From: Candidatus Iainarchaeum sp.
Lineage (GTDB): Archaea; Iainarchaeota; Iainarchaeia; Iainarchaeales; JAZDDZ01
DNA length: 34,873 bases
Assembly: GCA_043809245.1 (NCBI GenBank)
Contig: JAZDDZ010000027.1
Span: 1-34,873, forward strand
Reading direction: 5' to 3'
Shown here: piece by piece, positions 1,059 through 13,309 of the stretch
How the letters are laid out: the number at the start of each line of letters is the position of its first letter
Numbering within the stretch: the first letter of the stretch is position 1
Notes under the pieces: generated by a model
Database searches by the model: none
What the model saw: only the letters and a program-made list of their open reading frames with translations
What the model was told of the DNA's origin: nothing
Position numbers and translations under genes: made by a program

Positions 1059-1077
1059 TAGGCGATGATGAGGTTAA
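1059..1077 (+). repeat. att-like core copy A (taGGCGATGATGAGGTTAA)
   Basis: 18/19 identical to 13249-13267; TTTAA at 1031-1035. Confidence 0.85.
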
Positions 1078-1121
1078 TTCGGGTTATTGCCGAATAACGC
1101 TATTTGTGCTAACAATAATTT

Positions 1122-1146
1122 TTTAAATATTGATGCTCATCAATAT
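1122..1146 (+). promoter_or_regulatory. TATA box overlapping an ArsR/SmtB-type operator
   Basis: TTTAAATA at 1122-1129; perfect inverted repeat ATATTGATG-ct-CATCAATAT at 1127-1146 just upstream of arsR. Confidence 0.8.
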
Positions 1147-1151
1147 GTTTT

Positions 1152-1427: not shown

Positions 1428-1428
1428 A

Positions 1429-2535
1429 ATGAAAGAAAAAAACTTGTTTTTGTTGCTGGCGGCACTGTTTCTGGCGTTCTACTTCATGCCGGTTGGAAGC
1501 CAATGGCTTGACAATGCCTTGCTAAGCGGTTTTGCATTGTTGCACGAGTACGCAACACAGCATATTTTAACCTGCCTTGTTCCGGCATTTTTTATTGCGG
1601 GGGCTATCGCGGTTTTTGTAAAAAAACAGGCGGTTCTTAAATACCTGGGCGGAAAAGCAAAACCATATGTTTCCTACACGATTGCCTCTGTTTCAGGCGC
1701 GGTTCTTGCAGTCTGCAGCTGCACAATCCTTCCATTGTTTGCAGGAATTTATAAAAGAGGAGCAGGGCTTGGACCGGCAACAGCATTCCTTTACTCGGGG
1801 CCGGCAATAAACATTGCAGCAATTTTTTTAACAGCAAGCGTTTTGGGCTTTAAGATTGGATTAGCGAGGGCAGTTTCAGCAATTGCTTTAGCAGTGCTTG
1901 TAGGAGTGACAATGGCTTTCCTTTTCAGGGAAAAAAGCGCAAAACAAGAGATTGCAATAGAAGAAGAAACAGGGCAAAAAACCTCAAAAACAGCAATCGG
2001 AGTGTTCTTTGCTTCAATGGTCGGAATCCTAATAGTGAACGGCCTGCAGATTGACTTGACAATAAAATGGGGGCTAATGGGTTTCCTTGCCCTGATTGCG
2101 GCAGCGGTTGTTTTGCTGAAATTTAAAAGCGAGACAAGAGACCAGTGGCTTGCAGAAACATGGAGCATAGGCAAACTCCTTATCCCCTATTTATTCATCG
2201 GTGTGTTCATTGTCGGATTCATAATGCCGTTGATTCCTGAAGAACTAATAATTCAATGGGTTGGCTCAAATACAATTCAAGCAAACCTTTTGGCATCAAT
2301 TTTTGGGGCATTCATGTATTTTTCCACACTCACTGAGGTGCCAATAATGCAGGCACTGATTGCAAAAGGGATGAATCAGGGGCCGGCACTTGCGCTGTTG
2401 CTTGCGGGCCCTTCATTGAGCCTGCCTGCAATGCTTGTAATAAGAAGCGTTTTAGGAAACAAAAAAACAATTGCATACATTGCAATAGTTGTGGTTTATT
2501 CCTCTATTGCAGGATTGATTTTTGGAATGGTTTAA
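1429..2535 (+). CDS. ArsP/DUF318-type permease
   Basis: Multi-TM protein with AVCSCTILPLFAGI, FLYSGPAIN and MYFSTLTEVPI motifs; in operon with arsR. Confidence 0.88.
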   Translation: MKEKNLFLLLAALFLAFYFMPVGSQWLDNALLSGFALLHEYATQHILTCLVPAFFIAGAIAVFVKKQAVLKYLGGKAKPYVSYTIASVSGAVLAVCSCTILPLFAGIYKRGAGLGPATAFLYSGPAINIAAIFLTASVLGFKIGLARAVSAIALAVLVGVTMAFLFREKSAKQEIAIEEETGQKTSKTAIGVFFASMVGILIVNGLQIDLTIKWGLMGFLALIAAAVVLLKFKSETRDQWLAETWSIGKLLIPYLFIGVFIVGFIMPLIPEELIIQWVGSNTIQANLLASIFGAFMYFSTLTEVPIMQALIAKGMNQGPALALLLAGPSLSLPAMLVIRSVLGNKKTIAYIAIVVVYSSIAGLIFGMV

Positions 2536-2546
2536 GGAGGAATTAA

Positions 2547-2774
2547 ATGAAAATAGAAATATTGGGAACCGGTTGCCCGAAATGCAAGCAACTTGAAGCA
2601 AATGCCAGAAAAGCTCTGGAAGAGACCGGGAAAAAAGCTGAAATAGTAAAAGTGACAGACATAAACAAAATAATTGAAGCAGGAGTAATGGCAACCCCCG
2701 CTTTAGCTGTTGACAGAAAAATCGTTTGCAGCGGCAGAATCCCTACAACAGACGAAATCAAAAAATGGCTATGA
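2547..2774 (+). CDS. Small redox-active disulfide protein (MTH895-like thioredoxin)
   Basis: MKIEILGTGCPKC ... GVMATPAL; RBS AAGGAGG. Confidence 0.9.
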   Translation: MKIEILGTGCPKCKQLEANARKALEETGKKAEIVKVTDINKIIEAGVMATPALAVDRKIVCSGRIPTTDEIKKWL

Positions 2775-2779
2775 AACAA

Positions 2780-2830
2780 TAATTTTAAGGCATTAACACC
2801 ATACGATACATTAGGCAATAATGATGTTAT
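2780..2830 (+). repeat. Module-end repeat + att-like core copy B
   Basis: 2780-2809 is identical (30/30) to 7108-7137; core 2814-2830 GGCAATAATGATGTTAT is 14/17 to 13251-13267. Confidence 0.85.
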
Positions 2831-3051
2831 AGTCTGAAATTTGGTGTGTGTTACCGCCAACTTTTTAATTATCTTTAGCCCTAATCTGGGTGGTCTTAGG
2901 CAGATATTTTAAACGTTGCTCCGCATGGAGAAAACCATTTGAAAACGATAAAAACCAGAAAAATTCTTTACATTGACAAAATTGTCTTCATAAATAGCAA
3001 CCGAAACATTTATATTTTGTGTTACTCATAATTAACATAAATTATTAATTT

Positions 3052-4323
3052 ATGTTTGGTGAATTTAGCATGGCTACAATCCAAGAAAGGCTTGTTGAAT
3101 TCAATTCGTGGTGGAAGGAAACATTTACATTAGAATTCAGGCCTAGAAAGGTTTACGGCGAAATGCGCAAGTTTCATAAACAGCCACAAATAGTCGCATT
3201 AACTGGTTTAAGGCGTGTCGGCAAGTCCACTTTACTCAAAAAGATTGTACAAGACGAAATTGCTGCAGGAAGAGACCCAAAAGCAATAATGTATTTTTCT
3301 TTTGACGAATTCAAGGACACTGAACCAAGCGAAATACTCAAAGCATATAATGAAATCACTGGAAAAGATGCTTCAAAAGAAAAAACTATTTTATTGTTTG
3401 ATGAAGTACAAAAGGTAACTGATTGGGAGAATAAAATCAAGACAATTTATGACCTTTACAAAGGAAAAGCGAAAATTTACATTTCGGGCTCTGAATCCTT
3501 GTTTGTAAAAACAAAGGCAAAGGAAACGCTCGCAGGAAGAATATTTTACTTCAAGGTTGAAACACTGTCTTTTATAGAATACCTTGACTTCAAACAAAAA
3601 AAGTTTGAACCAACCGCGCTTTACCAGAAAGAATTGTTCAAAGAATTCAAGGAGTTTATTCAATCACAGGGTTTCCCGGAGCTCGTTAATGTAACTGACC
3701 GGGAGATAATCCAAAAATACATTCAAGAAGGCATTGTTGAGAAAATAGTTTACAGGGATATTCCAACAATTTACGCTATCAAAGAAACCAGTGTTTTGGA
3801 ATCATTGCTCAAGCTTTTAATGGAAGAACCGGGTCAAATTATTGACATGCAAACCTTGGCTTCTCAATTTAAGACCACGCGCCAAACAATTTCCAATTAT
3901 TTTTCATTCCTTGAACAAGCATTTCTAATCAGAAAATTGTACAACTATTCCCCAAACAAAAGAAAAGTTGAAAGAAAACTCAAAAAATACTACTCCGCTA
4001 TACTATCGCCCTCGCTCACATTCAAAGAAGACACAATTTCACAATCAAAAGTCTTGGAATGCGTAGTAGCCAATAATCTCAATGCGGAGTTTTTTTGGCG
4101 AGACCAGTACAAGAACGAAGTGGACATAATCCTTACAGAGCCGGCACTAATTCCAATAGAAGTAAAACTTTCTGAAACAAAATCAAAAAGCTTGGAACTA
4201 TTCATGCAAAAATTCAAGGCAAAAAAAGGTTATATCATAACACAAAACCAAGAAATAAAAGAAAAAGGCAAAGTGGAAGTAATGCCCGCTTTCAAGTACT
4301 TCTTGGTCCGTCAGACAAAGTGA
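3052..4323 (+). CDS. AAA+ ATPase (AAA_14 + DUF4143)
   Basis: GLRRVGKST, LFDEVQ, SGS, ETLAGR, C-terminal EVD...IPIEVK; alternative start 3070. Confidence 0.9.
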   Translation: MFGEFSMATIQERLVEFNSWWKETFTLEFRPRKVYGEMRKFHKQPQIVALTGLRRVGKSTLLKKIVQDEIAAGRDPKAIMYFSFDEFKDTEPSEILKAYNEITGKDASKEKTILLFDEVQKVTDWENKIKTIYDLYKGKAKIYISGSESLFVKTKAKETLAGRIFYFKVETLSFIEYLDFKQKKFEPTALYQKELFKEFKEFIQSQGFPELVNVTDREIIQKYIQEGIVEKIVYRDIPTIYAIKETSVLESLLKLLMEEPGQIIDMQTLASQFKTTRQTISNYFSFLEQAFLIRKLYNYSPNKRKVERKLKKYYSAILSPSLTFKEDTISQSKVLECVVANNLNAEFFWRDQYKNEVDIILTEPALIPIEVKLSETKSKSLELFMQKFKAKKGYIITQNQEIKEKGKVEVMPAFKYFLVRQTK

Positions 4324-4549
4324 TTTATATGTGGAAAAACTGAATAACAAATTTTGGCGGGAACTAGAAAGGCGTTTTGGCAAAGCAAAACTTAATGTAG
4401 TTTTAAAATTGGGAAAATCTTATTTTAATGGTATTAAGGGGTGAAAAGAAATGAAACCGAGATTAAGTCTGTGAAAAGGCAGATTGACGATATTCTCGAT
4501 GACCTGAATAAAAGCAAGAAGTATGTGTACGCGGTTTACAGGTGAAACA

Positions 4550-4786
4550 ATGCCTGTGAAATTCAAGTATTGCCCGAAGTGCGCTTCACTGGACTTAATC
4601 AGCATTGACGGAAAAGACTACTATTTTTGCAGGAGCTGCGAATACAAGGGCTGCGTGCTGGAAGACACACCGGATTATATCGAAGCGTACAAAAACGGGT
4701 TTCCGGAAGATTCTTTCAAGCATTCCAAGGCCAGGGCTCCCCTGGAAAAGCATAAACTGTTAAGAAAAGAGTCAACAGACAATTAA
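4550..4786 (+). CDS. Small zinc-ribbon protein
   Basis: CPKC...CRSC; RBS AGGTGA at 4540-4545 supports ATG 4550. Confidence 0.6.
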   Translation: MPVKFKYCPKCASLDLISIDGKDYYFCRSCEYKGCVLEDTPDYIEAYKNGFPEDSFKHSKARAPLEKHKLLRKESTDN

Positions 4787-5104
4787 TTGGGGGCAGTTGT
4801 ATTGGATGAATTCGTGAGCAAGTATTTGGTTAAGGGCATTGACAATCTTTCAAAAGAGGAATTGAATGAATTGGGCGACCATTTTCTTCGGAAAGTCCTG
4901 ACAGACATTATTTACGTGAAGGACAACTTTTTCAAAAACCCAAAAAATGAAAACGAATGGAGTGAATTCAGAAAAAACAAAGATTCTGATTACCTTTTAT
5001 CCCTGCTTATCGCTGGAACACTTATGGATGAATACAAAAAGAAAGGGACAACCACGTCTGCGCAAAAATTCTGCCATGAATGCGGCGCAAAACTGATTAA
5101 GTGA
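4787..5104 (+). CDS. Hypothetical protein, possibly a fragment (single CHECG knuckle)
   Basis: 105-aa ORF with TTG start, ending KFCHECGAKL. Confidence 0.45.
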   Translation: MGAVVLDEFVSKYLVKGIDNLSKEELNELGDHFLRKVLTDIIYVKDNFFKNPKNENEWSEFRKNKDSDYLLSLLIAGTLMDEYKKKGTTTSAQKFCHECGAKLIK

Positions 5105-5163
5105 AAGAATCCGACTTTTCACAAAAAGTCAACATTTAAATGATTTGGAGATAGTATTTTAAT

Positions 5164-6003
5164 ATGCCTAAAAGGATTCTTGCTAGAAGACCTAAGACCC
5201 CGCCAAATGATCCTTTGAAAAGACCAATTAGGAGATTAAGAAATTTTTTTATACGAAATGGTCAAGAACCAGAGATAATTGTAGAGCCTAATGGTTTGTT
5301 AATAAAAACACAGGAAACACGGGAAGTGGTTGAAGACAGTGGGTTTAATATCGAGGAAACTCACCAATTGCCTGGACATTATTTCATTCCGAATTATAGC
5401 CTGGGTTTTGTCATGATGCATCCAAAAATATTACTTGAAAAGAATGTTCAATGGAAAGCAAAAGAAAGTTTCATGAAAGGAGAACAATACAGATATTACT
5501 CTGGAAGAGTTCCAAGCGCTAAAGGGAGAACTAAAAATGGACAGCCAACAGAAAGACCTAGAAAAACTGTTTTCCGTAAAGACTATATACTTAGAGACCG
5601 CAGTCAGCGCACGCGTCCGCTTGGAGAACCACTGGCCATCGCAGAAGCAAGAAACTCAACTATCTTTGGCGACTCAAAGCCAATAAAGATTAATGATGAG
5701 GTAAGTTTTCGAATACCAAAATACTATGCAGCAACACCACACGGAGTACTACTGGAGAGAATAGATAGGCCAACATTTAATGAATTTGTCGATAAATTGC
5801 CTGAAAAAGACAAAGGGCGTGTTAAAGAAAACTATCGCCAACTTTTAAATTTTCTTAAAGATAAAAAAAATTATGGGGGGGCATTTTGGATTCCTTTAAA
5901 GCCGCCAAATAGTTCGAGGGCAGGGGTCAGACAAGTTTACATTGACTCGTATAACAGAAAAACAGGAGAAACAAAATTCATAATTACAGACCTTAAAAAA
6001 TAA
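5164..6003 (+). CDS. Hypothetical basic protein
   Basis: 279-aa ORF, TTTAAA ~25 nt upstream; weak kinase-N-lobe-like segment PKYY...VLLERIDRPT. Confidence 0.7.
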   Translation: MPKRILARRPKTPPNDPLKRPIRRLRNFFIRNGQEPEIIVEPNGLLIKTQETREVVEDSGFNIEETHQLPGHYFIPNYSLGFVMMHPKILLEKNVQWKAKESFMKGEQYRYYSGRVPSAKGRTKNGQPTERPRKTVFRKDYILRDRSQRTRPLGEPLAIAEARNSTIFGDSKPIKINDEVSFRIPKYYAATPHGVLLERIDRPTFNEFVDKLPEKDKGRVKENYRQLLNFLKDKKNYGGAFWIPLKPPNSSRAGVRQVYIDSYNRKTGETKFIITDLKK

Positions 6004-6204
6004 GGTGAATGGTGAACGTTCAACTATAATTGTCTAAAACACAATTTTGCCAAAGCCCTAACCCTCCAATCCCTCTGCTTTTTTGAGCGGGCGGAATCTC
6101 TGCACAAAAAACCCAGATTCAGAATCCAAATTGTAATCCCTTTTTGTGCAAAGCAAAAGAATCCGATACATTTATTAATACCTACAGCGATTATGTAATA
6201 CGAT

Positions 6205-6345
6205 ATGCCGTATAGAAGTGGAGTGACTACAATCCAGTTGAGCCCGGCTACAAGGGACAAATTGAAAGAGTTGGGCAAGAAGGGCGAAAGCTACGATCAG
6301 ATAATAAACAAACTTGTGGATTTCTGGTCAAAGAAGAAAAAATGA
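6205..6345 (+). CDS. 46-aa RHH/antitoxin-like DNA-binding protein, copy 1 (not in ORF track)
   Basis: MPYRSGVTTIQLSPATRDKLKELGKKGESYDQIINKLVDFWSKKKK; 30/46 identical to 12684-12824. Confidence 0.85.
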   Translation: MPYRSGVTTIQLSPATRDKLKELGKKGESYDQIINKLVDFWSKKKK

Positions 6346-6348
6346 ATT

Positions 6349-6441
6349 TTAGCTTAAGAGCTCTTTTAGTTTGTTGGACAGCAATTTATTGCGTTCTTCA
6401 AAGAACTGTTTGAAATTATTGAAATCGAGATTCACATTAGA
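6349..6441 (-). pseudogene. 3'-terminal gene fragment resembling DUF262/GmrSD-family C-termini
   Basis: Minus strand reads NVNLDFNNFKQFFEERNKLLSNKLKELLS*; family assignment is from recalled resemblance only. Confidence 0.4.
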
Positions 6442-6616
6442 TTGGAGAATCGTTATTACACTTTTAGGATGGTCAACTTTAATCAAGGGAATTATGAAAA
6501 TTGGGTTCCCGGAAGTGATTCATAAACAAGCACAGAGATTCAAAACGAAACAGGCAATTAGCACTGTTTTCATGATGCTCTTGGGTGCATGGCTAATCTG
6601 GATGAGCTTTGTCTAA
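6437..6616 (+). pseudogene. 3'-terminal fragment of a small membrane protein
   Basis: LDWRIVITLLGWSTLIKG...two TM helices; its apparent N-terminus is the antisense of another gene end. Confidence 0.5.
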
Positions 6617-6729
6617 TGGCATGAACGCTGCATTAGACACGCCCATAAAAGCGGAGAAAGCCCAAAAAACCATTAATTTTATTACATCATTACTATTGAA
6701 TACAATAGGAGATTATTCGGACGATGATT

Positions 6730-7110
6730 ATGAAAATCCAGCTTTTGTATATTTTGGATTGCCCCTGGTGCGTGAAAACAAAGGAACTGCTTAAGGGCAG
6801 CTTAAAAGAGCTTGGCACAAAGGCTGATGTTGAAGAAATCCTAATTGACTCTGATGAAAAAGCCAAAAAATACAAGTTTGTTGGCTCGCCAACAATAAAG
6901 ATTGATGGAAAGGATATCCAGGAAACAATTAGCAAGGGCCGGTGCCTGCCCTGCGAAGAAATAGCCGAACAAGACAAGGGAGCAACTGAATTCATTAAAC
7001 AGGAATGCAAGTGCGGCTGCAGAACCTATTCCTACAAAGGGAAGCAGTATCCCTACCCGCCAAAGGCCATGATTAAGGAAGCCGTCAAGAAATCGCTCAA
7101 AAACCGTTAA
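6730..7110 (+). CDS. Cys-rich thioredoxin-fold protein (DUF2703-like), copy 1
   Basis: CPWC, GSPTIKIDG, CLPC, CKCGCRTY; 107/117 identical to 12843-13232. Confidence 0.85.
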   Translation: MKIQLLYILDCPWCVKTKELLKGSLKELGTKADVEEILIDSDEKAKKYKFVGSPTIKIDGKDIQETISKGRCLPCEEIAEQDKGATEFIKQECKCGCRTYSYKGKQYPYPPKAMIKEAVKKSLKNR

Positions 7111-7158
7111 TTTTAAGGCATTAACACCATACGATACTTACGGCAATGATGAGGTCAA
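7108..7158 (+). repeat. Module-end repeat + att core copy C (putative attL)
   Basis: Core 7142-7158 GGCAATGATGAGGTCAA is 16/17 to 13251-13267 and lies 64 nt before the integrase start. Confidence 0.9.
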
Positions 7159-7191
7159 GCACTATAGTAATGTATAGGCATTACAGTAGAG

Positions 7192-7227
7192 TTTAAAAAG
7201 AGATAGCAGCACCATAGTATCTATGGT
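7192..7227 (+). promoter_or_regulatory. Integrase promoter with palindromic operator over the start codon
   Basis: TTTAAAAA at 7192-7199; ACCATAG-tat-CTATGGT at 7211-7227 contains ATG 7223. Confidence 0.65.
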
Positions 7228-8515
7228 AACGAAAGACGAATACAACCTGAACCACACGCTCAACAGGCTCAATAATTCTGGCATGCTGCCTTACAACAAA
7301 AGCAAGGCACTCGAATTCTATAACGAAAAGGTTGCCCAGGGCATCAGAAAGACAAGCTACACCTATGTTCTGCGCATTCTCATTGAATTAGGCGAGCACT
7401 TCAAGGACAAAAAGTTCGAAGACATTCCAAAGAGCGAAATGGTTTCCTTCTTCAACAACTTGAAGCCAAAAGACAAGGTTTTGAAAACAAGATGCGGGCC
7501 TGTTGTAACAATCCCAATCGAATCCTACAGCGAAGGCACTTTATGGCAATACAAGGCAGCTGTCAAAATGTTTTACAAATGGCTCTTTGGAAAAGAGAAT
7601 GACGAAACCCCGTCGGACGCAGTCCGCTGGATAAAGAAAGCAGCTAATGGCAACGGAAACGGCTATGATAAATTCAGGAAAGAAATCCTTACAGCAGAAG
7701 AAATGCTCAAAATATTGAACGCCGCAAAGAACGCCCGCAACAAAGCCATTATTGCAATCTTGTGGGAGTACGGCCTGCGAGCTTCTGAATTATTGAACAT
7801 GAAAAAACCCGATTTGAAAATTGCAGAGAATTACATTGAGTTTGAAGTTAATGGCAAGACTGGAAAAAGGCAAGTCATTCTGGTTGAAAGCAAGCCGTTC
7901 CTTGAAGCCTGGCTCGCAGAACTCGAAGAAAAGAAATCCCAAATCCCCAAGCAGCTGCAGGATTACATCTGGCTTGCGTTCTCCTCAAGAGGCTACCGCA
8001 AAAAAGCAATTGGAACACAACTCATTTCCAGGGATGCCCTGAACGTGAAACTTAAATGGATTGCAAAAGCAGCTGGCATTGATAAGCGGGTTTGGACTCA
8101 TGGCTTTCGGCACAGCTCCGCAACAAAAGATGCGGTAAAAGGATACAATGAAGCAAAACTCAGGGCAAAATACGGCTGGAGCAACAAAAGCAACATGCCT
8201 TCTGTTTACGTTCACTTTGCAAACCAAAATTTGAAGAAAGAGATTTTGATTGAGAAGGGCCTTTGGAAACCTGACAAAAAAGAGCAGGAACCGCTCTCAA
8301 CGCAAACAGTTATTTGCCCTTTCTGCTCTGTTCAGAACATGAAAGAAAACGACTATTGTAGCAAGTGCGGAAAGCCCCTCAAAATAGAGCAGCTGAAAGC
8401 AATGGAAAAGAAATCCGAGCAGCTGAACCTGCTGCAAGAAATAATAGCGCAAGAGCTTGAAAAGAAAGGCGTTGACCTGGAACAAATGGCAAAGATACTG
8501 GCGGGAAAAGGCTGA
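7223..8515 (+). CDS. int: Tyrosine recombinase/integrase with C-terminal zinc ribbon
   Basis: GLRASEL (R), GKTG (K), HGFRH (HxxR), YGWS (W), SVYVH (Y); CPFC...CSKC. Confidence 0.93.
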   Translation: MVTKDEYNLNHTLNRLNNSGMLPYNKSKALEFYNEKVAQGIRKTSYTYVLRILIELGEHFKDKKFEDIPKSEMVSFFNNLKPKDKVLKTRCGPVVTIPIESYSEGTLWQYKAAVKMFYKWLFGKENDETPSDAVRWIKKAANGNGNGYDKFRKEILTAEEMLKILNAAKNARNKAIIAILWEYGLRASELLNMKKPDLKIAENYIEFEVNGKTGKRQVILVESKPFLEAWLAELEEKKSQIPKQLQDYIWLAFSSRGYRKKAIGTQLISRDALNVKLKWIAKAAGIDKRVWTHGFRHSSATKDAVKGYNEAKLRAKYGWSNKSNMPSVYVHFANQNLKKEILIEKGLWKPDKKEQEPLSTQTVICPFCSVQNMKENDYCSKCGKPLKIEQLKAMEKKSEQLNLLQEIIAQELEKKGVDLEQMAKILAGKG

Positions 8516-8630
8516 CTTTACAGTTTTCCAATAAATTCCCAAACTTGCCAAAAAGCAGCAGTAAATTGCTTATAATGCATGATTTTGTAAACTTTTGTGC
8601 AGTATATCGCTTTTAGTGAACACTTTTTAA

Positions 8631-8691
8631 TGCTCAATGTATTGAGCAATATTGCACATTATTGCTCATTGTAATAAGCAATGTTTAAATA
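8631..8691 (+). promoter_or_regulatory. Tandem palindromic operators + TATA upstream of the AAA-DUF4143 gene
   Basis: TGCTCAAT-gt-ATTGAGCA (8631-8648), ATTGCTCATT-gt-AATAAGCAAT (8661-8682), TTTAAATA (8684-8691). Confidence 0.6.
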
Positions 8692-8713
8692 CTAGTTTGC
8701 GCATTATTTTATC

Positions 8714-9976
8714 ATGATTTCAAAGAGTATTTTGAGGACAGTTATTGCAGACCAACTGAAAGAGATGGAATCATTAAAGGATTCTGTGCCAAGAACTGTT
8801 TTTCCCACTGCCGTTTCTTATAGCGGAGCTTCTGCTTTCGTTGTCAAGGGAGTGAGGAGATGCGGCAAGAGCACCTTGCTGAAGCAGCTGATTAAGGCAA
8901 AATTTGAAAACGATTTTTTTTACTTTAACTTTGATGATGAAAGAATTGAAGGATTCAAGTCTGAAGACTTTCAGCCGCTAATGGAAACACTGATTGAGGC
9001 TTTTGGAGAAAAAAAGAACGTTTTCTTTGATGAAATCCAGAATATTAAAGGCTGGGAATTGTTTGTCAACAGGATACTAAGGCAGGGTTACAAAGTTTTC
9101 ATTACAGGTTCTAATGCAAACCTGTTAAGCAAGGAACTCGGAACACACTTGACAGGAAGGCACGTGGATTTGGAGCTTTATCCTTTTTCTTTCGCTGAAT
9201 TCTTGAAAGCAAAGAAGATAGAAATCCCAAAAAAAGGAATTTATTCCACTGAACAAAAAGCATTGCTTTCAAAGGAATTCAAGGAATACTTTTTAAAAGG
9301 CGGAATGCCGGAGGTTGTTGTTTTCTCAAACGAAGCAGTCCTGACAGCAATACTCACAGACATAATCCGAAAAGACATTTCCGAAAGATATGACATTAGA
9401 AAGCCAAGCGAACTCAAAACAGTGTTAAAATTCTTAATAGCCAATTCTGCAAACCCCATAACTTACAGGTCAATAAAAAACAATTTTGACATTCAAAGTG
9501 CCAATACCATCCAAAAATACATTGAATATGCTGAAGAAACATACCTTGTCTTCACTGTCCGAAAGCTCGAAAAGAAAATAAAACGTTTCGACAAAAACCC
9601 CAAAAAAATTTACTGCATTGACAACGGCATAATAATAAAAAACACGCCAAGCATTACAGAAAAAAAAGGCGCCCTATTAGAAAACATGGTTGCAGTTCAC
9701 TTGAAAAGGCTTGGAAAAGAATTCTATTACTTCAAAACAAGAAACAGCGAAGCCGACTTTGTGGTTCCAACAGAAAAACTGGCCATTCAAGTATGTTATG
9801 AACTCGACAACAAAAACAAAGAACGCGAAACAAAAGGGCTCATTGAAGCAATGCACGAAACCAAAGCAACCAGCGGCCTAATACTGACACTTGAACAAGA
9901 ACAAGAAACAACCATCCAAAACAAAAAAAGAATCATAAAACCAGCCTGGCAATGGTTATTGGAAAAACAACCCTGA
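8714..9976 (+). CDS. AAA+ ATPase (AAA_14 + DUF4143)
   Basis: GVRRCGKST, FFDEIQ, TGSN, LTGR, GGMPE, KIYCIDNG, EADFV. Confidence 0.92.
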   Translation: MISKSILRTVIADQLKEMESLKDSVPRTVFPTAVSYSGASAFVVKGVRRCGKSTLLKQLIKAKFENDFFYFNFDDERIEGFKSEDFQPLMETLIEAFGEKKNVFFDEIQNIKGWELFVNRILRQGYKVFITGSNANLLSKELGTHLTGRHVDLELYPFSFAEFLKAKKIEIPKKGIYSTEQKALLSKEFKEYFLKGGMPEVVVFSNEAVLTAILTDIIRKDISERYDIRKPSELKTVLKFLIANSANPITYRSIKNNFDIQSANTIQKYIEYAEETYLVFTVRKLEKKIKRFDKNPKKIYCIDNGIIIKNTPSITEKKGALLENMVAVHLKRLGKEFYYFKTRNSEADFVVPTEKLAIQVCYELDNKNKERETKGLIEAMHETKATSGLILTLEQEQETTIQNKKRIIKPAWQWLLEKQP

Positions 9977-9980
9977 TGCT

Positions 9981-11228
9981 ATGCACAGTTTATTGAAAAA
10001 ACTCTCGGAACTATTCGGCAAAAAGATTCCGAGAGCAAATTACCTGATTGAATTCAGGTTTCACGGCTATGCAAAAAGATACGCAAGAGAACTAAGCGAG
10101 CAAATCTCGCACAAGTTTCACGTAAAGCAAGTCGTGAGAAAAGGTCGGCCGCCGCACATAACCTTGTTTGGCGGCTTTTCCTGCGGCAACGAAAAAGAGC
10201 TCGTTCAAAAATTCATTAAAATCTGCAAAAACTTTGACTTGATAAAATTCAAGCTGAACGATTTGGGGCATATTGAGAACAAGGTCATTTTCATTGACGT
10301 TGAACCTTCCCAGGAATTAAAAGAGCTGCGATTGCAATTAGCCAAAGAACTTATTCCTGTTTGCGAAGCAAAAGAATGGGACAAGGAACAAGAGTTCGTG
10401 TTTCACGCAACGCTTGCACTCAAAGACCTCGAAAACAAGTTTGACAAAATCTGGGAATACCTGCAAAACATGGAAAAACCAAACATCGAACAATATCTCC
10501 TCAGGCTAACACTGTTAAGGAATGGCAAAATCCTGAAGGAATACGACTTCATCCAAAGAAGGTTATTGAGAAGGGATGAAGCCTTAAGCAAGAAAACACT
10601 GAAAACCACAATAGGATATTTGGGCGAAATAAAAGAAAACGGCAGAACAAGAATCATTGAAGAAAATTCCGACAAAGTTTTCCTGATCAGCGATTTGCAC
10701 CTGGACCACGAAAACATAATCAAATACTGCCACAGGCCATTCAAAAATGCCGAAGAAATGAACAAAACAATTGTAGAAAATTGGAACTCAACTGTTGGCA
10801 AAAATGACGCTGTTTACTTTTTGGGTGACATGGCTTTCGGCAAAGGCAGCAGAAAAGCAAGTTATTGGATAAAACAATTGAACGGCAAAATAACATTCAT
10901 TGAAGGAAACCACGAAGAAGTTGGGAACATCAAAAGCTATTCCACTGCAGAAGACGTTTTCCTGAAATATAAGGGAAAAGAATTCCTGCTGGTTCACGAT
11001 CCTGCCCTGAAACCAAAAAACTGGGACGGCTGGACAATTCACGGCCACAAGCATAACAATCATTTGGAAGAATTTCCCTTCATAAACGGCGAAAGAAAAA
11101 CAATCAACGTAAGCTGCGAGCTGCTCGACTACAAGCCAATAAACCTGAACGAAATAATGCCCCGACTGGGTACTGTGAAGTATTGGAGAACAATAAACGA
11201 CAAGCCAATCAAAAACACCGGGCTGTAA
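9981..11228 (+). CDS. 2H phosphoesterase (2'-5' RNA ligase-like) fused to a calcineurin-like metallophosphoesterase
   Basis: Two HxT motifs (PHITL, FHATL), then SDLH, LGD, GNHE, VHDP, HGHKH. Confidence 0.88.
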   Translation: MHSLLKKLSELFGKKIPRANYLIEFRFHGYAKRYARELSEQISHKFHVKQVVRKGRPPHITLFGGFSCGNEKELVQKFIKICKNFDLIKFKLNDLGHIENKVIFIDVEPSQELKELRLQLAKELIPVCEAKEWDKEQEFVFHATLALKDLENKFDKIWEYLQNMEKPNIEQYLLRLTLLRNGKILKEYDFIQRRLLRRDEALSKKTLKTTIGYLGEIKENGRTRIIEENSDKVFLISDLHLDHENIIKYCHRPFKNAEEMNKTIVENWNSTVGKNDAVYFLGDMAFGKGSRKASYWIKQLNGKITFIEGNHEEVGNIKSYSTAEDVFLKYKGKEFLLVHDPALKPKNWDGWTIHGHKHNNHLEEFPFINGERKTINVSCELLDYKPINLNEIMPRLGTVKYWRTINDKPIKNTGL

Positions 11229-11230
11229 AT

Positions 11231-11434
11231 ATGGAAACTTTCAAAGGAAAAGTCAGAAGAATCTTCAATAACGGCAAGCGCGTTCACGTTGCCAGAAGCC
11301 ACTCGCTCTGCGAAATCGACAACGAAATTCCCGACTTAAAAATCGGCGATTTGGTCCTCTGCCAATGGGATAAAACAATCAAAAAAATCGACAAAAACCA
11401 AACAGGCCTAAAAACATATTCAGCAACTGAATAA
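11231..11434 (+). CDS. Small hypothetical protein (67 aa, beta-rich)
   Basis: ATG 2 nt after the upstream stop; METFKGKVRRIF...LKIGDLVLCQW. Confidence 0.6.
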   Translation: METFKGKVRRIFNNGKRVHVARSHSLCEIDNEIPDLKIGDLVLCQWDKTIKKIDKNQTGLKTYSATE

Positions 11435-11532
11435 TTCAGTAAGTGAATACAAATTTTGGTTAGTGCTTATTTTCCCATTTAACAAGGTCGCGAATGTGCG
11501 CCAATTCCCAGGCGCGGAACTCTTCTTTCATC

Positions 11533-12027
11533 TCAGCAATTTCCTTTTTGGTCGGCTTCTTCCTGGCTCCAGCCGAATTTGCTGATTAATTGCTCCCTTG
11601 AAGGCCTGCTGGCCTGGACAAATTCCTTGATGTCCTGGACAGGGTCTTTTTCTATTTCGTTCAGTTTTTTCTCGTCAAGCCAGGCAACAAGGATTTTTCT
11701 TTTATCGCCATAATTCTGCCTGAGTTCAGTCTTTACTTCAGGATAGCGCTGTTTCAAGGCAGTGAACAAGCGCTTCTTTTGCGTTGAATCATACAACCCA
11801 AGCTTGGCACAGTCATAAGAATTGAACTTTCCGGCCTGCCTGATTATTTCAAAAGCAACGTCAGCAAGCTTTGCAGTCTTGCCCAAATAGGTTTCATCAA
11901 TAATTGCATCAAAATTCTCTATGTAAGAAGCAATTTTCTGGCTCAATTCTGAAACATCCTTCTGCATGGAGAGCAATTGGTTACGCATTGCTTCCCTGCT
12001 CAAATGCTTTGCGTTCTCTGCGCTCAT
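11533..12027 (-). CDS. Hypothetical protein with N-terminal coiled coil
   Basis: 164-aa ORF coupled by ATGA overlap to the upstream 52-aa ORF. Confidence 0.7.
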   Translation of the reverse strand: MSAENAKHLSREAMRNQLLSMQKDVSELSQKIASYIENFDAIIDETYLGKTAKLADVAFEIIRQAGKFNSYDCAKLGLYDSTQKKRLFTALKQRYPEVKTELRQNYGDKRKILVAWLDEKKLNEIEKDPVQDIKEFVQASRPSREQLISKFGWSQEEADQKGNC

Positions 12028-12182
12028 TGCTGACCAGCTCCGTCGCTTCTGGCAGCAATGCTGCTCTTGTCCACTACAGTCCTACCGAGCTTGATTTCAC
12101 TGATGACTATTTTGTTCTCTGTCTCTTCCAGGTTGTTTCCTTGAAGCCTATAACCGTTTTTCAGAATAAGCTTTGTTCTCAT
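12024..12182 (-). CDS. 52-aa protein, possible Sm/Hfq-like fold (not in ORF track)
   Basis: MRTKLILKNGYRLQGNNLEETENKIVISEIKLGRTVVDKSSIAARSDGAGQQ; stop overlaps the next ATG. Confidence 0.6.
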   Translation of the reverse strand: MRTKLILKNGYRLQGNNLEETENKIVISEIKLGRTVVDKSSIAARSDGAGQQ

Positions 12183-12444
12183 CTCTCATTGCCCCCACAG
12201 GCCCGAATATCAGGTAAATTGTCCGCTCGCTTTCCCGTTCAATCCCACCCAACTCGACAGCATTTTCACCAGGCAGGAAAGAGCAGTTAATGTTTGATTT
12301 TGGCGCTTCGTGAAAGAAAATCAGCTGGCCACTGATTCCTTGTTCTGCAAGATTTATTTGCTCGCCTCTCCGCCCCTTGACCTCAAGCACAACAAAAGTG
12401 TTTGAATTCTTAAGCGGATAAACAGTCTTTCCAATTATCTGCAA
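12148..12444 (-). CDS. Hypothetical protein
   Basis: TTG start preceded by purine-rich GGAGAGGAGAGTGA; first gene of a three-gene minus-strand operon. Confidence 0.55.
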   Translation of the reverse strand: MQIIGKTVYPLKNSNTFVVLEVKGRRGEQINLAEQGISGQLIFFHEAPKSNINCSFLPGENAVELGGIERESERTIYLIFGPVGAMRDENKAYSEKRL

Positions 12445-12504
12445 TTTTGGTCACTCTCCTCTCCAAATGATTATGAAAATTTTCTGTTCTCACTCATGCG
12501 AACC

Positions 12505-12598
12505 CCTTAATATACTTTACTGGGGCACATTTTCGGGCCGCAACACCCCCGCACAGAAAAATCTGCCTATACATCCCCCAACCACCTTAATATACTTT
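12505..12598 (-). promoter_or_regulatory. Duplicated BRE/TATA (AAAGTATATTAAGG x2)
   Basis: CCTTAATATACTTT at 12505-12518 and 12585-12598, upstream of the minus-strand operon. Confidence 0.55.
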
Positions 12599-12683
12599 TA
12601 TTTTGAGAGGAAAAAATACGAACTAATGCACTATGATTAAAAATAGTTACTATAGTTTGTTCTTTATAAAGAGGTTTTGAAAA

Positions 12684-12824
12684 ATGCCGAGCAGAAACGG
12701 AGTAACCACAATCCAACTGGAAATGAAAACACGCGACAGGCTAATGCGCATCGGAAAAAAAGGCGAAACATACGACGAAATAATCAACAAGCTAATTGAC
12801 CAGCACGTGAAAAGGAAAAAGTAA
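12684..12824 (+). CDS. 46-aa RHH/antitoxin-like DNA-binding protein, copy 2 (not in ORF track)
   Basis: MPSRNGVTTIQLEMKTRDRLMRIGKKGETYDEIINKLIDQHVKRKK; RBS GAGGT. Confidence 0.85.
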   Translation: MPSRNGVTTIQLEMKTRDRLMRIGKKGETYDEIINKLIDQHVKRKK

Positions 12825-12842
12825 CTGTGATGAGGGCCAATT

Positions 12843-13232
12843 ATGAAAATTCAGCTTTTGTACATTTTGGATTGCCCTTGGTGCGTTAAAACAAAGGAAC
12901 TGCTTAGGAGCAGCTTGAAAGAGCTCGGCGCAAAAGCAGATGTTGAGGAAATCCTGATTGATTCGGATGAAAAGGCCAAAAAATACGGATTTGTCGGCTC
13001 GCCGACTATAAGGATTGATGGAAAGGATATCCAGGAAACAATTAGCAAGGGCAAGTGCCTTCCTTGCGAAGAAATGGCCGAACAAAGCAAGGGCGCAACT
13101 GAATTCATTAAACAAGAATGCAAATGTGGTTGCAGAACCTATTCTTATAACGGAAAACAGTACCCCTACCCACCGAAGGAAATGATAAAAGAAGTCATTA
13201 ATGCAGCCAAAACCAAAGGCTTTAATCAATAA
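12843..13232 (+). CDS. Cys-rich thioredoxin-fold protein (DUF2703-like), copy 2
   Basis: CPWC, GSPTIRIDG, CLPC, CKCGCRTY. Confidence 0.85.
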   Translation: MKIQLLYILDCPWCVKTKELLRSSLKELGAKADVEEILIDSDEKAKKYGFVGSPTIRIDGKDIQETISKGKCLPCEEMAEQSKGATEFIKQECKCGCRTYSYNGKQYPYPPKEMIKEVINAAKTKGFNQ

Positions 13233-13249
13233 TCTCTATACATTACAGT

Positions 13250-13309
13250 AGGCAATGATGAGGTTAACACCATCTGAATTAAATGTGGAATCAACTCAAC
13301 TCTGAGCCT
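13250..13309 (+). ncRNA. Box C/D methylation-guide sRNA; its 5' end is att core copy D (attR)
   Basis: Terminal stem AGGC/GCCT; box C ATGATGA 13255-61; 12-nt guide GGTTAACACCAT; D' CTGA 13274-77; degenerate C' ATGTGGA 13283-89; 12-nt guide ATCAACTCAACT; D CTGA 13302-05; T-run downstream. Confidence 0.88.

What the first reader, a model, noticed from the sequence alone, without database searches (positions are those of the whole stretch)
7142..13309. Integrase element that uses a box C/D sRNA gene, not a tRNA, as its attachment site
Seen: the integrase-bearing 6.1-kb segment is bounded by GGCAATGATGAGGTYAA (7142-7158 and 13251-13267, 16/17). The right copy is the stem, box C and first half-guide of a complete C/D sRNA. 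Known: archaeal tyrosine integrases (SSV1, pNOB8 and SNJ2 types) mostly target tRNA genes. Inference: this integrase targets the 5' end of a methylation-guide RNA and restores it on insertion, which could be an undescribed class of integration target.
Basis: partly seen in the sequence, partly recalled or inferred. Interest (0 to 1): 0.9.

Follow-up and report, generated by a model that had tools for sequence, protein, structure and literature searches.

The report
Integrase element inserted in guide-RNA gene
A small mobile element in an uncultured archaeon sits in the first 14-17 bases of a conserved ribosome-methylation guide RNA gene and rebuilds that gene on insertion, so these archaea appear to use guide-RNA genes where other microbes use tRNA genes as landing sites.

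Summary
GGCRATGATGAGGTYAA occurs at 7142 and 13251. It also occurs at 1061, with a decayed copy at 2814. Shuffles give 0.00 expected matches.

The right copy is the 5' end of a real double-guide C/D box sRNA (13251-13309). Its box C plus D' guide is found in 73 of 196 genomes of the order, against 0 for the reversed control. Its terminal stem covaries. Its guides pair with two sites 29 nt apart in the own 23S rRNA, one of them the A-loop U.

The integrase (7223-8515) is tied to this site in other genomes. All 6 testable genome homologs at 58% identity or more carry the same core about 80 nt upstream of the gene, as do 8 of 13 metagenome homologs. Homology with two metagenome copies starts exactly at 7142. 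One relative (G116) has the same two-ended layout.

All sRNA-linked integrases fall in one well-supported clade, and tRNA-linked ones lie outside it. A sister subclade sits on a second C/D sRNA.

No excision junction, empty site or RNA data could be obtained. I found no paper describing this target.

The parts
187..1014 (+). C-terminal half of an ABC-F-type ATPase gene; probable native left flank of the sRNA locus
   Evidence: Pfam ABC_tran 7.7e-24 and ABC_tran_Xtn. An 80%-identical homolog also lies upstream of a core plus integrase in G137:C52.
1061..1077 (+). Core copy c1 (GGCGATGATGAGGTTAA), a 5' fragment of the sRNA; leftmost junction of the array
   Evidence: No D or D' box follows it, and no DUF2703 gene precedes it.
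1078..2813 (+). Segment S1, without integrase: arsR-type regulator 1152-1427, ArsP-type permease 1429-2535, 75-aa MTH895/ArsE-family thioredoxin-like gene 2547-2774, then a P-arm-like stretch 2775-2813
   Evidence: Pfam HTH_5 4.5e-15 and ArsP_1 5.5e-83. NCBIfam TIGR00412 3.6e-31. The same three genes (67-86% aa identity) precede core + integrase in G023:C7.
2814..2830 (+). Decayed core copy c2 (GGCAATAATGATGTTAT, 14 of 17; box C destroyed)
   Evidence: blastn 2758-2827 against 7085-7155, 81.7%; alignment.
2831..7141 (+). Segment S2, without integrase: AAA_14/DUF4143 ATPase 3052-4323 (PADLOC candidate defence family PDC-S01), small Zn-ribbon ORF 4523-4786, unknown ORFs, DUF2703 gene 6724-7110, P arm 7108-7141
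   Evidence: Pfam. PADLOC PDC-S01 1.9e-66. 6220-6348 resembles the right-end region of the G116 element.
7142..7158 (+). attL core of the integrase-bearing element (c3); the first 14 nt are identical to 13251-13264
   Evidence: Homology with metagenome copies L089 and L090 starts exactly here.
7159..7222 (+). P' arm: dyad CTATAGTAATGTATAG (7162-7177), repeat CATTACAGTAG (7179-7189), TTTAAAAA box, then the integrase start
   Evidence: Conserved next to the core in L051-L056, L089-L093. Inverted repeat with 13230-13251.
7223..8515 (+). Tyrosine integrase, 430 aa, with a C-terminal four-Cys zinc ribbon
   Evidence: PF00589 6e-19, 68.9 bits against a cut-off of 27.1. Invariant R186 K212 H293 R296 W319 Y329 and C365 C368 C379 C382 in 8 homologs. 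Nearest solved structure is archaeal XerA, 1.4e-13.
8714..9976 (+). Cargo: AAA_14/DUF4143 ATPase, candidate defence gene (PDC-S01)
   Evidence: Pfam 3e-39 and 1.9e-24. PADLOC PDLC04787 1.2e-106.
9981..11228 (+). Cargo: fusion of a 2H (LigT-like) phosphoesterase and a metallophosphoesterase
   Evidence: Pfam 2_5_RNA_ligase2 3.1e-17 and Metallophos_2. PHROG 547 7.6e-45. A 52% homolog lies next to the sRNA in G009.
11533..12027 (-). 164-aa protein of unknown function, conserved in related elements
   Evidence: tblastn hits in the G116 (46%) and G142 (37%) elements. No family hit.
12148..12444 (-). 98-aa protein of unknown function, conserved near the right end of related elements
   Evidence: tblastn hits in G055, G116, G142 and L090 at 51-63%. 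No family hit.
12843..13232 (+). Element-borne DUF2703 / 'DF family' thioredoxin-like gene, paralog of 6724-7110
   Evidence: NCBIfam NF049942 3e-23.
13221..13250 (+). P arm: TTTAAT box about 30 nt upstream of the sRNA, plus CTATACATTAC (13236-13246), the inverted partner of 7167-7177
   Evidence: The 23 nt next to the core (13228-13250) are identical to the stretch left of the full sRNA in G116:C72. Same arm type in L031, L038, L039, L048.
13251..13309 (+). Complete double-guide box C/D sRNA; its first 17 nt are the attR core

Best explanation
Window 7159-13250 is a 6.1-kb integrative element of an uncultured, small-genome archaeon. Its tyrosine integrase recombines a site on the element (attP) with the first 14 or so base pairs of a host box C/D sRNA gene.

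**The shared core.** The core is GGCRATGATGAGGT. It comprises the terminal-stem GGC, one spacer base, box C, and the first three guide bases.

**The junctions after insertion.**
- The left junction (7142-7158) keeps only this 5' fragment. It is followed by the element's P' arm and then the integrase gene.
- The right junction (13251 onward) joins the element's P arm and its copy of the core to the untouched remainder of the sRNA. A complete sRNA is therefore rebuilt.

**Likely expression of the rebuilt sRNA.** The P arm carries a TTTAAT box about 30 nt upstream of the sRNA, where most relatives have TTTAAA/G. The rebuilt sRNA is therefore probably transcribed from element DNA.

**What the sRNA does.** It is a conserved dual guide. 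By the N+5 rule it should direct 2'-O-methylation of the A-loop U of 23S rRNA (own position 2622) and of a G 29 nt downstream (2651).

**The tandem array.** Two older, integrase-less segments lie upstream, each ending in a thioredoxin-like gene, a P arm and a core copy. S1 (1078-2813) carries arsR, arsP and trx. S2 (2831-7141) carries a candidate defence ATPase and DUF2703. The locus is thus a tandem pile-up at one attachment site.

**Shown versus inferred.**
- Shown: the repeats, their non-random nature, conservation and covariation of the sRNA, the recurrent integrase-core linkage, and the boundary at 7142.
- Inferred: catalysis by this integrase, the crossover lying inside the 14-mer, sRNA expression from the P arm, and the history of S1 and S2 (about 60% sure for that last point).
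For: **1. The repeats are not chance.** There are 3 matches against 0.00 expected, and they are the only ones in the genome.

**2. The sRNA is real.**
- It has a canonical layout with 12-nt guides.
- The 23-nt box C + D' guide + D' pattern occurs in 73 of 196 genomes of the order, against 0 for the reversed control.
- Of 32 matches of that pattern in loci L019-L048 plus L079, my box search extracted 24 full-length sRNAs. Six matches had no full-length copy and 2 lay at a locus edge.
- With the window's own sRNA these 24 gave a 25-row alignment (A4). Both guide cores are conserved in 23 of the 25 rows; L019 and L020 carry a different D guide.
- The terminal stem covaries: 90% of cells are paired against 75.9% in shuffles, and 12 cells have changes on both sides against 3.0. 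In both cases 0 of 500 shuffles reach the observed value, and slid controls give 13-44%.
- Genes matching the fibrillarin, Nop and L7Ae families are in the genome.
- The D' guide pairs over 10 bp (9 Watson-Crick, 1 G-U) with own LSU 2620-2629. The D guide pairs over 11 bp (10 Watson-Crick, 1 G-U) with 2647-2657.
- U2622 aligns with the U of E. coli GGCUGUUCGCC, the A loop.

**3. The integrase-core linkage recurs.**
- The core lies 65-85 nt upstream of the integrase in L051-L056, that is 6 of 6 testable homologs at 58-78% identity, from 4 different host families, and in L057 at 37%.
- It is also present in L060 at 39%.
- It is present in 8 of 13 metagenome homologs examined: L089 at 96%, L090 at 91%, L091, L093, L097, L100, L102 and L103.

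**4. The boundary is precise.** blastn homology of L089 (90.5%) and L090 (87.6%) with the window begins at 7142, and the sequences upstream of it differ.

**5. A second two-ended case exists.** G116:C72 has core + P' + integrase at one end. 12.6 kb away it has P arm + full sRNA, and the 23 nt of that P arm next to the core are identical to the window's.

**6. The arms flanking the core co-vary.**
- Window: CTATACATTAC against GTAATGTATAG.
- G142: CTTCTATATTGTC against GACAACATAGAAG.

**7. The phylogeny separates the targets.** All 16 sRNA-linked integrases lie in one clade of 24 (SH-aLRT 100). The 5 tRNA-linked ones lie in a separate clade of 9 (SH-aLRT 98).

**8. The enzyme looks intact.** Residues that I assign, from recall of the family motif, to the catalytic set are invariant in all 8 aligned homologs.
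Against: - No direct evidence of movement. No run holding this DNA was listed, so no attP junction or empty-site reads could be examined.
- No genome of the same family is held, so no empty site was found.
- There is no RNA evidence for the sRNA. It reaches no Rfam gathering score.
- Each guide's 10-nt pairing is reached by 41 and 50 of 2000 shuffled guides respectively. The target assignment therefore rests mainly on guide conservation and on the two sites lying 29 nt apart.
- The repeat shared by attL and attR is about 430 nt long and contains identical runs longer than the 14-mer. From this window alone the crossover could lie anywhere in it.
- S1 and S2 lack the integrase and the P' arm, so their origin as elements is an inference.
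- In G023:C7 the arsR-arsP-trx-core-integrase stretch has no second core within 19 kb. I cannot explain this.
- In G142:C20 the right-hand sRNA copy is cut after the D' box, and the copy upstream is degenerate.
- 5 of 13 metagenome homologs showed no such core: 4 lack it, and L092 has only 51 nt upstream.
Confidence: 0.85

Rival explanations
1. The insertions arose by homologous recombination between the 430-nt thioredoxin-like (DUF2703) repeats, or by tandem segmental duplication. On this view the integrase and the sRNA fragment are bystanders.
For: The repeat shared by 6727-7158 and 12840-13267 is long (87-88% identical). It holds exact runs longer than the 14-mer. The spacings 1061-7142 and 7142-13251 are alike, at 6081 and 6109 nt.
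Against: - Copy c1 (1061) has no DUF2703 gene to its left, yet keeps the 17-mer.
- The two segments share nothing else at nucleotide level, and their ATPases are only 27% identical.
- In other genomes the same core lies next to the integrase without any DUF2703 gene.
- Homology with L089 and L090 starts exactly at the core.
Confidence: 0.04
2. The integrase targets a conserved DNA motif that only looks like a C/D sRNA. No functional guide RNA is made from 13251-13309.
For: There is no RNA data. There is no Rfam match at gathering score. The C' box is imperfect (ATGTGGA). The single-guide pairing statistics are modest.
Against: - The guides are conserved in 73 of 196 genomes, while the 2 nt next to D' and the internal loop vary freely.
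- The terminal stem shows compensatory changes.
- The D guide variants AACTCAAC, AATCCAAC and AACCCAAC all still pair with GUUGGGUU.
- About 40 C/D families give end-to-end sub-threshold matches at 13250-13310.
- Genes matching the three sRNP protein families are present.
Confidence: 0.04
3. The sRNA gene itself is cargo of the element, so that the element spans up to 13309 or beyond. The short copies would then be terminal repeats of another kind, not a host gene used as attB.
For: The upstream arms of many sRNA copies in the order fall into a few types shared across host families, so much of the sRNA context looks element-derived. Flanks beyond the sRNA in G116:C72 are only 34 nt long.
Against: - Only one of the four copies in the window is a full sRNA, and it is the only sRNA of this family in the genome. 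The rightmost junction therefore holds the cell's working copy.
- Copies next to the integrase always stop after 14-17 nt, as expected for attL.
- sRNA loci in most relatives have no integrase homolog within 1.5 kb. 1 of 30 loci had one, and that was a fragment.
Confidence: 0.05

Closest known systems
Classical (non-split) archaeal and bacterial tyrosine integrases that use tRNA genes as attB
   Same: The integrase gene abuts one junction. A short direct repeat is part of a stable RNA gene, and that gene is rebuilt after insertion. Elements pile up in tandem at the site. More distant homologs (27-35% identity) in the same order do sit next to tRNA genes.
   Different: The target is a box C/D methylation-guide RNA gene. 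The shared core is its 5' end (stem + box C + 3 guide bases), not the anticodon, T-loop or 3' end of a tRNA. The review of archaeal tyrosine recombinases (PMC8371274; passages read via find) lists tRNA genes, protein genes and intergenic sites. It has no occurrence of 'sRNA', 'snoRNA' or 'non-coding RNA'.
pTN3-like integrases of Thermococcales
   Same: Their attB is the 5' half of the RNA gene, and the rebuilt gene is then expressed from the integrase promoter (PMC8371274, passage in section 18). Here too the 5' end and the upstream region are supplied by the element.
   Different: The pTN3 target is a tRNA gene. Here the rebuilt gene lies at the end far from the integrase, behind the element's P arm. 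No sequence relationship to pTN3 integrases was tested.
Phage integration into other small stable RNA genes in bacteria (tmRNA gene ssrA, by recall; ffs 4.5S RNA, PMC12540744, search listing and start of abstract only)
   Same: A conserved non-tRNA structural RNA gene serves as the attachment site, and the core lies close to the integrase gene.
   Different: A different domain of life, a different RNA class and different integrases. The guide-RNA target here is shared by a whole integrase clade, and a sister subclade uses a second guide RNA.
Accretion of integrase-less, att-flanked islands next to an integrative element (CIME/ICE accretion in streptococci; recalled, no call)
   Same: Several core copies lie in direct orientation. 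They delimit one integrase-bearing unit and neighbouring units without an integrase.
   Different: Archaeal, far smaller units (1.7-6.1 kb). Mobilisation in trans was not tested.
Archaeal XerA (solved structures 5hxy, 4a8e)
   Same: Nearest solved relatives of the catalytic domain (E 1.4e-13 and 3.9e-13).
   Different: The protein scores 91 bits against the XerA equivalog cut-off of 220. It has a C-terminal zinc ribbon and an mobile-element context. Another recombinase in the genome (C23) fits PF00589 far better.

Membership tests
Tyrosine recombinase / phage integrase (PF00589) | Catalytic domain matches the family profile above its curated cut-off | tested here: met
   68.9 bits against 27.1, residues 155-334; PHROG 1 integrase 8.7e-27.
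Tyrosine recombinase / phage integrase (PF00589) | Catalytic R-K-H-R-H/W-Y residues present | tested here: met
   R186, K212, H293, R296, W319 and Y329 are invariant in 8 homologs of 38-100% identity. Assigning these columns to the catalytic roles is from recall of the motif, not from a structure.
Tyrosine recombinase / phage integrase (PF00589) | N-terminal SAM-like core-binding domain | tested here: inconclusive
   PF13495 scores 18.4 bits, below its cut-off of 27.
SSV-type ('suicidal') archaeal integrase | att site inside the integrase ORF, so that the gene is split on integration | tested here: not met
   The ORF 7223-8515 is intact at 430 aa. The core ends 64 nt upstream of the start codon.
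XerA chromosome-dimer resolvase | Scores as an equivalog of archaeal XerA | tested here: not met
   NF040815 scores 91.3 bits against a cut-off of 220.
Archaeal box C/D sRNA | Box C (RUGAUGA) near the 5' end and box D (CUGA) near the 3' end, closed by a short stem | tested here: met
   ATGATGA at 13255-13261, CTGA at 13302-13305, GGC/GCC stem. Stem covariation in 25 sequences.
Archaeal box C/D sRNA | Internal D' and C' boxes with guides of about 12 nt | tested here: met
   D' CTGA at 13274-13277, C' ATGTGGA at 13283-13289 (imperfect), and both guides exactly 12 nt.
Archaeal box C/D sRNA | Guide complementary to rRNA or tRNA, with a target at the fifth pair from D/D' | tested here: met
   LSU 2620-2629 and 2647-2657. 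U2622 aligns with the A-loop U of E. coli. Shuffled guides reach the same pairing in 2.0% and 2.5% of trials, so each match alone is modest.
Archaeal box C/D sRNA | sRNP proteins encoded in the genome | tested here: met
   Fibrillarin 9.6e-79, Nop 2.0e-63, L7Ae family 4.6e-29.
Archaeal box C/D sRNA | Match to a curated Rfam C/D family | tested here: not met
   0 matches at gathering score. Sub-threshold matches only; the best are SNORD121A at 30.8 bits against 44, and archaeal sR1 at E 0.0013.
Archaeal box C/D sRNA | Expressed and bound by L7Ae/Nop5/fibrillarin | not testable with these tools
   No run was listed.
Site-specifically integrated mobile element | Direct repeats at both ends, with the integrase gene next to one | tested here: met
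   The same is seen in G116:C72.
Site-specifically integrated mobile element | Boundaries coincide with breaks of homology in independent copies | tested here: met
   The left boundary is at 7142 in L089 and L090. The right boundary is less sharp, because the sRNA itself is conserved.
Site-specifically integrated mobile element | Empty site in a relative, or a circular or excised junction | not testable with these tools
   No genome of the same family is held. No run was listed. No viral-contig relative was found.

The most novel reading that the evidence does not exclude
A whole clade of tyrosine integrases in these small-genome archaea may be specialised on the 5' end (stem, box C, first guide bases) of box C/D sRNA genes. 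At least two different guide-RNA genes are used. One guides 23S A-loop methylation. The other pairs with 16S rRNA.

Guide-RNA genes would then play the part that tRNA genes play elsewhere, as hot spots where defence and resistance islands accumulate.

Every insertion replaces the sRNA's 5' end and promoter, and box C is common to all sRNAs. Recombination by these enzymes between different sRNA genes could therefore be the unexplained 'mobile feature' behind duplicated, composite and circularly permuted archaeal sRNAs.
Probability: 0.3. Interest if true: 0.85.

Novelty: new variant of a known kind. Interest (0 to 1): 0.75.

Why it matters
Site-specific integration into stable RNA genes is a textbook theme, but for archaea the described targets are tRNA genes, a few protein genes and intergenic sites. 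Here a methylation-guide RNA gene is the target, and it recurs across many uncultured lineages.

- **For mobile-element work**, it gives a simple marker (core + integrase) for finding and delimiting elements in genomes where tRNA-based searches would miss them.
- **For RNA biology**, it shows that the 5' end and promoter of an important guide RNA can be repeatedly swapped by mobile DNA. [quoted passage not shown]
- **For genome ecology**, the site collects a candidate defence ATPase twice and an arsenic-type permease module once. It therefore behaves as a small defence and resistance island.
- **For tool-building**, integrases with a defined 14-bp core are useful starting material.

Tried and rejected
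**Steps that gave nothing**

- Reads: the look-up of sequencing runs on 6500-13800 listed no run. Nothing can be said about excision or expression.
- Empty site: the DUF2703 protein search over 61 relatives found only distant hits. No genome of the same family is held. tblastn with the flanking ORF 13395-13898 found nothing in the sRNA loci.
- Viral contigs: no relative of the integrase was found.
- Genome contigs gave 3 loci whose titles say only 'uncultured archaeon' or similar. 'DPANN-like' is my inference from genome sizes of 0.3-1.5 Mb in the order, not a result.
- The Atlas gave no usable lead for the 164-aa and 98-aa conserved proteins.
- Pfam, NCBIfam, PHROGs and PADLOC gave nothing for those two proteins either.
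- tblastn of the integrase against the 30 sRNA loci L019-L048 hit only a C-terminal fragment in L029. Most sRNA copies in relatives therefore have no integrase of this family within 1.5 kb.
- Supplements of papers were not opened. Supplementary tables of PMC6009581 and PMC8371274 might list sRNA pseudogenes or att sites that bear on novelty.

**Readings considered and dropped**

- I first read gene copy 6724-7110 as the host copy and 12843-13232 as the element copy. The third core at 1061, which has no such gene, changed that. Both copies are better read as right-end cargo of two successive elements.
- I first counted L021 as a partial sRNA copy. It is a full sRNA with the two guides in swapped order.
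- My E. coli numbering anchored on the sarcin-ricin loop gave 2553 for the A-loop U, one more than the Um2552 I recall. I therefore identify the site by its sequence context and give numbers as plus or minus 1.

Full report
**Setting**

The window is a whole 34,873-nt contig (C27) of a 1.48-Mb, 55-contig archaeal genome. Completeness is 91.8%. The genome stands alone in its family among the genomes held. Its order holds 196 genomes of 0.3-1.5 Mb. 'DPANN-like' is my inference from genome size only.

**Observation**

With up to two mismatches the motif occurs three times in the window, at 1061, 7142 and 13251. The mean over 100 shuffles is 0.00. It occurs nowhere else in the genome.

A fourth, decayed copy lies at 2814-2830 (14 of 17). 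It came to light because 2758-2827 matches 7085-7155 at 81.7%.

The copies at 7142 and 13251 are the right ends of a repeat of about 430 nt. The repeat is made of two paralogous thioredoxin-like genes of the DUF2703 / 'DF family'. They are 6724-7110 and 12843-13232, with 107 of 122 residues identical. The copy at 1061 follows an ABC-F-type ATPase gene and has no such gene before it. The copy at 2814 follows a 75-aa MTH895/ArsE-family thioredoxin-like gene.

**The RNA gene**

13251-13309 reads as follows:
- stem GGC, then spacer A
- box C: ATGATGA
- D' guide, 12 nt: GGTTAACACCAT
- D' box: CTGA
- spacer: ATTAA
- C' box: ATGTGGA
- D guide, 12 nt: ATCAACTCAACT
- D box: CTGA
- closing stem: GCC

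A loose genome-wide scan for this architecture returned only two hits in 1.48 Mb. One is this locus and the other is on contig C18.

The 23-nt box C + D' guide + D' string, with up to three mismatches, is present in 73 of 196 genomes of the order. The reversed control gives none. By my reading of that table, 15 genomes have two or more matches, and many matches lie at contig ends.

Of 32 matches of that pattern in loci L019-L048 plus L079, my box search extracted 24 full-length sRNAs. Six matches had no full-length copy. One of those, L021, is a full sRNA with the guides in swapped order. Two more lay at locus edges.

I aligned these 24 with the window's own sRNA, giving 25 rows. In this alignment GGTTAAC(A/C)CC is almost invariant. 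The two bases next to D' and the internal loop vary freely. The D guide core varies among AACTCAAC, AATCCAAC and AACCCAAC. Two rows (L019, L020) carry a different D guide.

The terminal stem shows compensatory changes (GGC/GCC, GGAC/GUCC, UGC/GCA, AGC/GCU, UUUC/GAAA):
- 90% of cells are paired, against 75.9% in shuffles.
- 12 cells have changes on both sides, against 3.0.
- 0 of 500 shuffles reach either value.
- Slid controls give 13-44% paired.

Genes matching the fibrillarin, Nop and L7Ae families are present in the genome.

Rfam gives nothing at gathering score. At permissive settings about 40 of 47 matches are C/D families aligned end to end on 13250-13310. The best is SNORD121A at 30.8 bits against a gathering score of 44. 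Archaeal sR1 has E 0.0013.

**Targets**

In the own 23S rRNA the D' guide pairs with 2620-2629 (9 Watson-Crick pairs and 1 G-U). The D guide pairs with 2647-2657 (10 Watson-Crick pairs and 1 G-U). All three D-guide variants pair with GUUGGGUU using at most one wobble.

The fifth-pair rule (established knowledge) puts the methyl groups on U2622 and G2651, which are 29 nt apart. Aligned to an E. coli 23S gene, U2622 falls on the U of GGCUGUUCGCC, the A loop. G2651 falls on the first G of CUGGGUUUAG. By recall these are Um2552 and G2581. My count from the sarcin-ricin loop came out one higher, so I give the numbers as plus or minus 1.

A review states that A-loop modification at U2552 and/or G2553 is always present in the species examined (PMC7994747, passage).

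Shuffled guides reach the same 10-nt pairing in 41 and 50 of 2000 trials. Each match is modest alone. Conservation and the proximity of the two sites carry the argument.

**The integrase and its link to the core**

7223-8515 encodes a 430-aa tyrosine recombinase (PF00589, 68.9 bits). R186, K212, H293, R296, W319 and Y329 are invariant, as is a C-terminal four-Cys ribbon. The nearest solved relative is archaeal XerA. It is not a XerA equivalog, scoring 91 bits against 220. It is not split, so it is not SSV-type.

*Genomes of the order.* The order holds many homologs.
- The six with 58-78% identity whose upstream sequence is available are G116, G053, G142, G114, G106 and G023. They come from four host families.
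- All six carry GGCRATGATGAGGTnAn 65-85 nt before the start codon. It is followed by a conserved P' arm (CTATAG...TATAG dyad, then TTTAAAAA).
- G068 at 37% carries the core too, as does G137 at 39%.
- G055 at 90-92% starts inside the gene, so it cannot be judged.

*Metagenome homologs.* Of 13 examined, 8 have the core in the same place: L089 (96%), L090 (91%), L091, L093, L097, L100, L102 and L103. Four do not (L096, L098, L099, L110). One (L092) has only 51 nt upstream.

**Boundaries**

blastn homology of L089 (90.5%) and L090 (87.6%) with the window begins at 7142 and runs through the integrase. Upstream of it the three sequences are unrelated.

G116:C72 has core + P' arm + integrase at one end. 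12.6 kb away it has a full sRNA. The 23 nt preceding that sRNA are identical to window 13228-13250. In both cases attL and attR share 14 identical bases, then differ (C against T), then share AA. This places any crossover inside the 14-mer if it lies in the core at all.

In the joined (attP) form the core would be flanked by an inverted repeat: CTATACATTAC at 13236-13246 and GTAATGTATAG at 7167-7177. In G142 the two arms differ from these but again match each other: CTTCTATATTGTC and GACAACATAGAAG. I read these arms as integrase-binding sites. That is an inference.

**Expression after insertion**

Most sRNA copies in the order have TTTAAA/G-like boxes about 30 nt upstream. The window's P arm has TTTAAT at the same distance. 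The rebuilt sRNA would thus be driven from element DNA. pTN3-like elements do the equivalent for the 5' half of tRNA genes (PMC8371274, passage). This step is inferred.

**Phylogeny**

I built a tree of 42 integrases (IQ-TREE quick). Rows under 330 aa or with internal stops were left out.
- All 16 core-linked sequences lie in one clade of 24 (SH-aLRT 100).
- That clade also holds 2 sequences without flank and 6 labelled 'other'. One of the six, L054, is mislabelled. Its gene is frameshifted, and its core was seen.
- The 5 sequences with a tRNA gene just upstream (ARAGORN; Rfam) lie in a separate clade of 9 (SH-aLRT 98).

**A second guide RNA**

Within the big clade there is a subclade of L096, L098, L099 and L059 (SH-aLRT 97). 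L096 and L098 carry GCCGATGAWGAMCTGAC 85-88 nt upstream of the integrase instead.

This string is the 5' end of a second conserved C/D sRNA:
- It is present in 45 of 196 genomes, against 5 hits in all for the reversed control.
- The own genome has one intact copy on C18, the other hit.
- Its D' guide pairs 10 of 10 with the own 16S rRNA.
- Partial copies ending at ...CTGAC occur in several relatives: L136, L140, L141, L142 (twice) and L150.
- L099 and L110 have the 3' part of this sRNA next to the integrase in the opposite orientation. I did not resolve this.

**The array and its cargo**

- S3 (7159-13250) holds the integrase, an AAA_14/DUF4143 ATPase, a LigT-like plus metallophosphoesterase fusion, two conserved unknown genes on the minus strand, and the DUF2703 gene. 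The ATPase matches PADLOC candidate defence family PDC-S01 at 1.2e-106. The two unknown genes are also found in the G116, G142, G055 and L090 elements.
- S2 (2831-7141) holds a second PDC-S01-type ATPase, 27% identical to the first, and a DUF2703 gene. It has no integrase.
- S1 (1078-2813) holds arsR, an ArsP-type permease and a small thioredoxin-like gene. The same trio (67-86% aa identity) precedes core + integrase in G023:C7.

I read S1 and S2 as remnants or integrase-less riders of related elements. That reading is weaker, because neither has a P' arm and G023:C7 shows only one core in 19 kb.

**Literature**

Searches found no paper that links C/D box sRNA genes with an integrase or an att site.
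- Only 2 papers hold both 'box sRNA' and 'integrase', once each. Their titles are unrelated (listing only).
- The review of archaeal tyrosine recombinases has no occurrence of sRNA, snoRNA, non-coding RNA or DPANN (find mode).
- The Pyrobaculum study describes duplicated, composite, permuted and MITE-like sRNAs, but 'integrat' does not occur in it (find mode).
- Subscription-only papers and supplements were not searched.

**Verdict**

The kind of system (integration into a stable RNA gene) is known, but the target class and the 5'-end geometry are new as far as I could search.

What is missing is any direct sign of movement or of the RNA.

Noticed in passing
G000:C18:30592-30608 (-), and loci L096, L098, L131-L150: A second conserved double-guide C/D sRNA has the layout GCC-GATGATGA-nCTGACGATGAC-nCTGA...GATGACGA-AGATGGGCGGA-CTGA-GGC. 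It is found in 45 of 196 genomes. Its 5' 17 nt lie 85-88 nt upstream of integrases of a sister subclade, and 5'-only copies end at ...CTGAC in several relatives. This looks like a second guide-RNA attachment site.
   Followed up: partly
L099 and L110 (upstream of the integrase): Here the 3' part of the second sRNA lies next to the integrase in inverted orientation. The element seems to sit the other way round relative to the RNA gene. Not resolved.
   Followed up: no
loci L024, L028, L040, L043, L045 and window 2785-2795, 7118-7128: Many sRNA copies have TTAACACC about 22-25 nt upstream of the gene. This is the same string as the core of the D' guide, so there is a direct repeat of the guide in the promoter-proximal arm. 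No explanation.
   Followed up: no
L021 (G035:C21): An sRNA of the same family with the two guides in swapped order (box C - D-type guide - D' ... C' - GGTTAACACC - D). This is a circular permutation like those described for Pyrobaculum sR56/sR57.
   Followed up: no
window 1-151 and 34733-34873: Both contig ends are 96.6-100% identical over 135-151 nt to the ends of at least eight other contigs (C7, C14, C15, C20, C29, C36, C42, C47). This is either a dispersed repeat at which the assembly breaks or an assembly artefact.
   Followed up: no
window 15167-15315: Two runs of AAC/AAT triplets (12-nt periodicity) lie 70 nt apart, each ending in TAAATTT. They may be low-complexity Asn-rich coding sequence or simple repeats.
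   Followed up: no
L029 / L087 (G009:C8): An 89-aa ORF is 72% identical to the zinc-ribbon C-terminus of the integrase alone (residues 349-429). It lies beside a full sRNA and a 52% homolog of the LigT-metallophosphoesterase fusion. Similar lone fragments occur in G031 and G108. These are likely relics of decayed elements.
   Followed up: no
L080 (G142:C20) and L100: Two core copies lie about 600 nt apart just upstream of the integrase. In G142 the outer one is a full-length sRNA with degenerate boxes, and the copy at the far end is cut after the D' box. An intact sRNA of the family lies on another contig (C68).
   Followed up: partly
L081 (G023:C7:28000-47000): arsR-arsP-trx, a P-like arm, the core, the P' arm and the integrase are contiguous, as in an attP-type junction. 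No second core lies within 10 kb upstream or 8.6 kb downstream on a 57.6-kb contig.
   Followed up: partly
window 3052-4323 and 8714-9976: Two only 27%-identical AAA_14/DUF4143 ATPases both match the PADLOC candidate defence family PDC-S01. The site collects defence-type cargo twice.
   Followed up: partly
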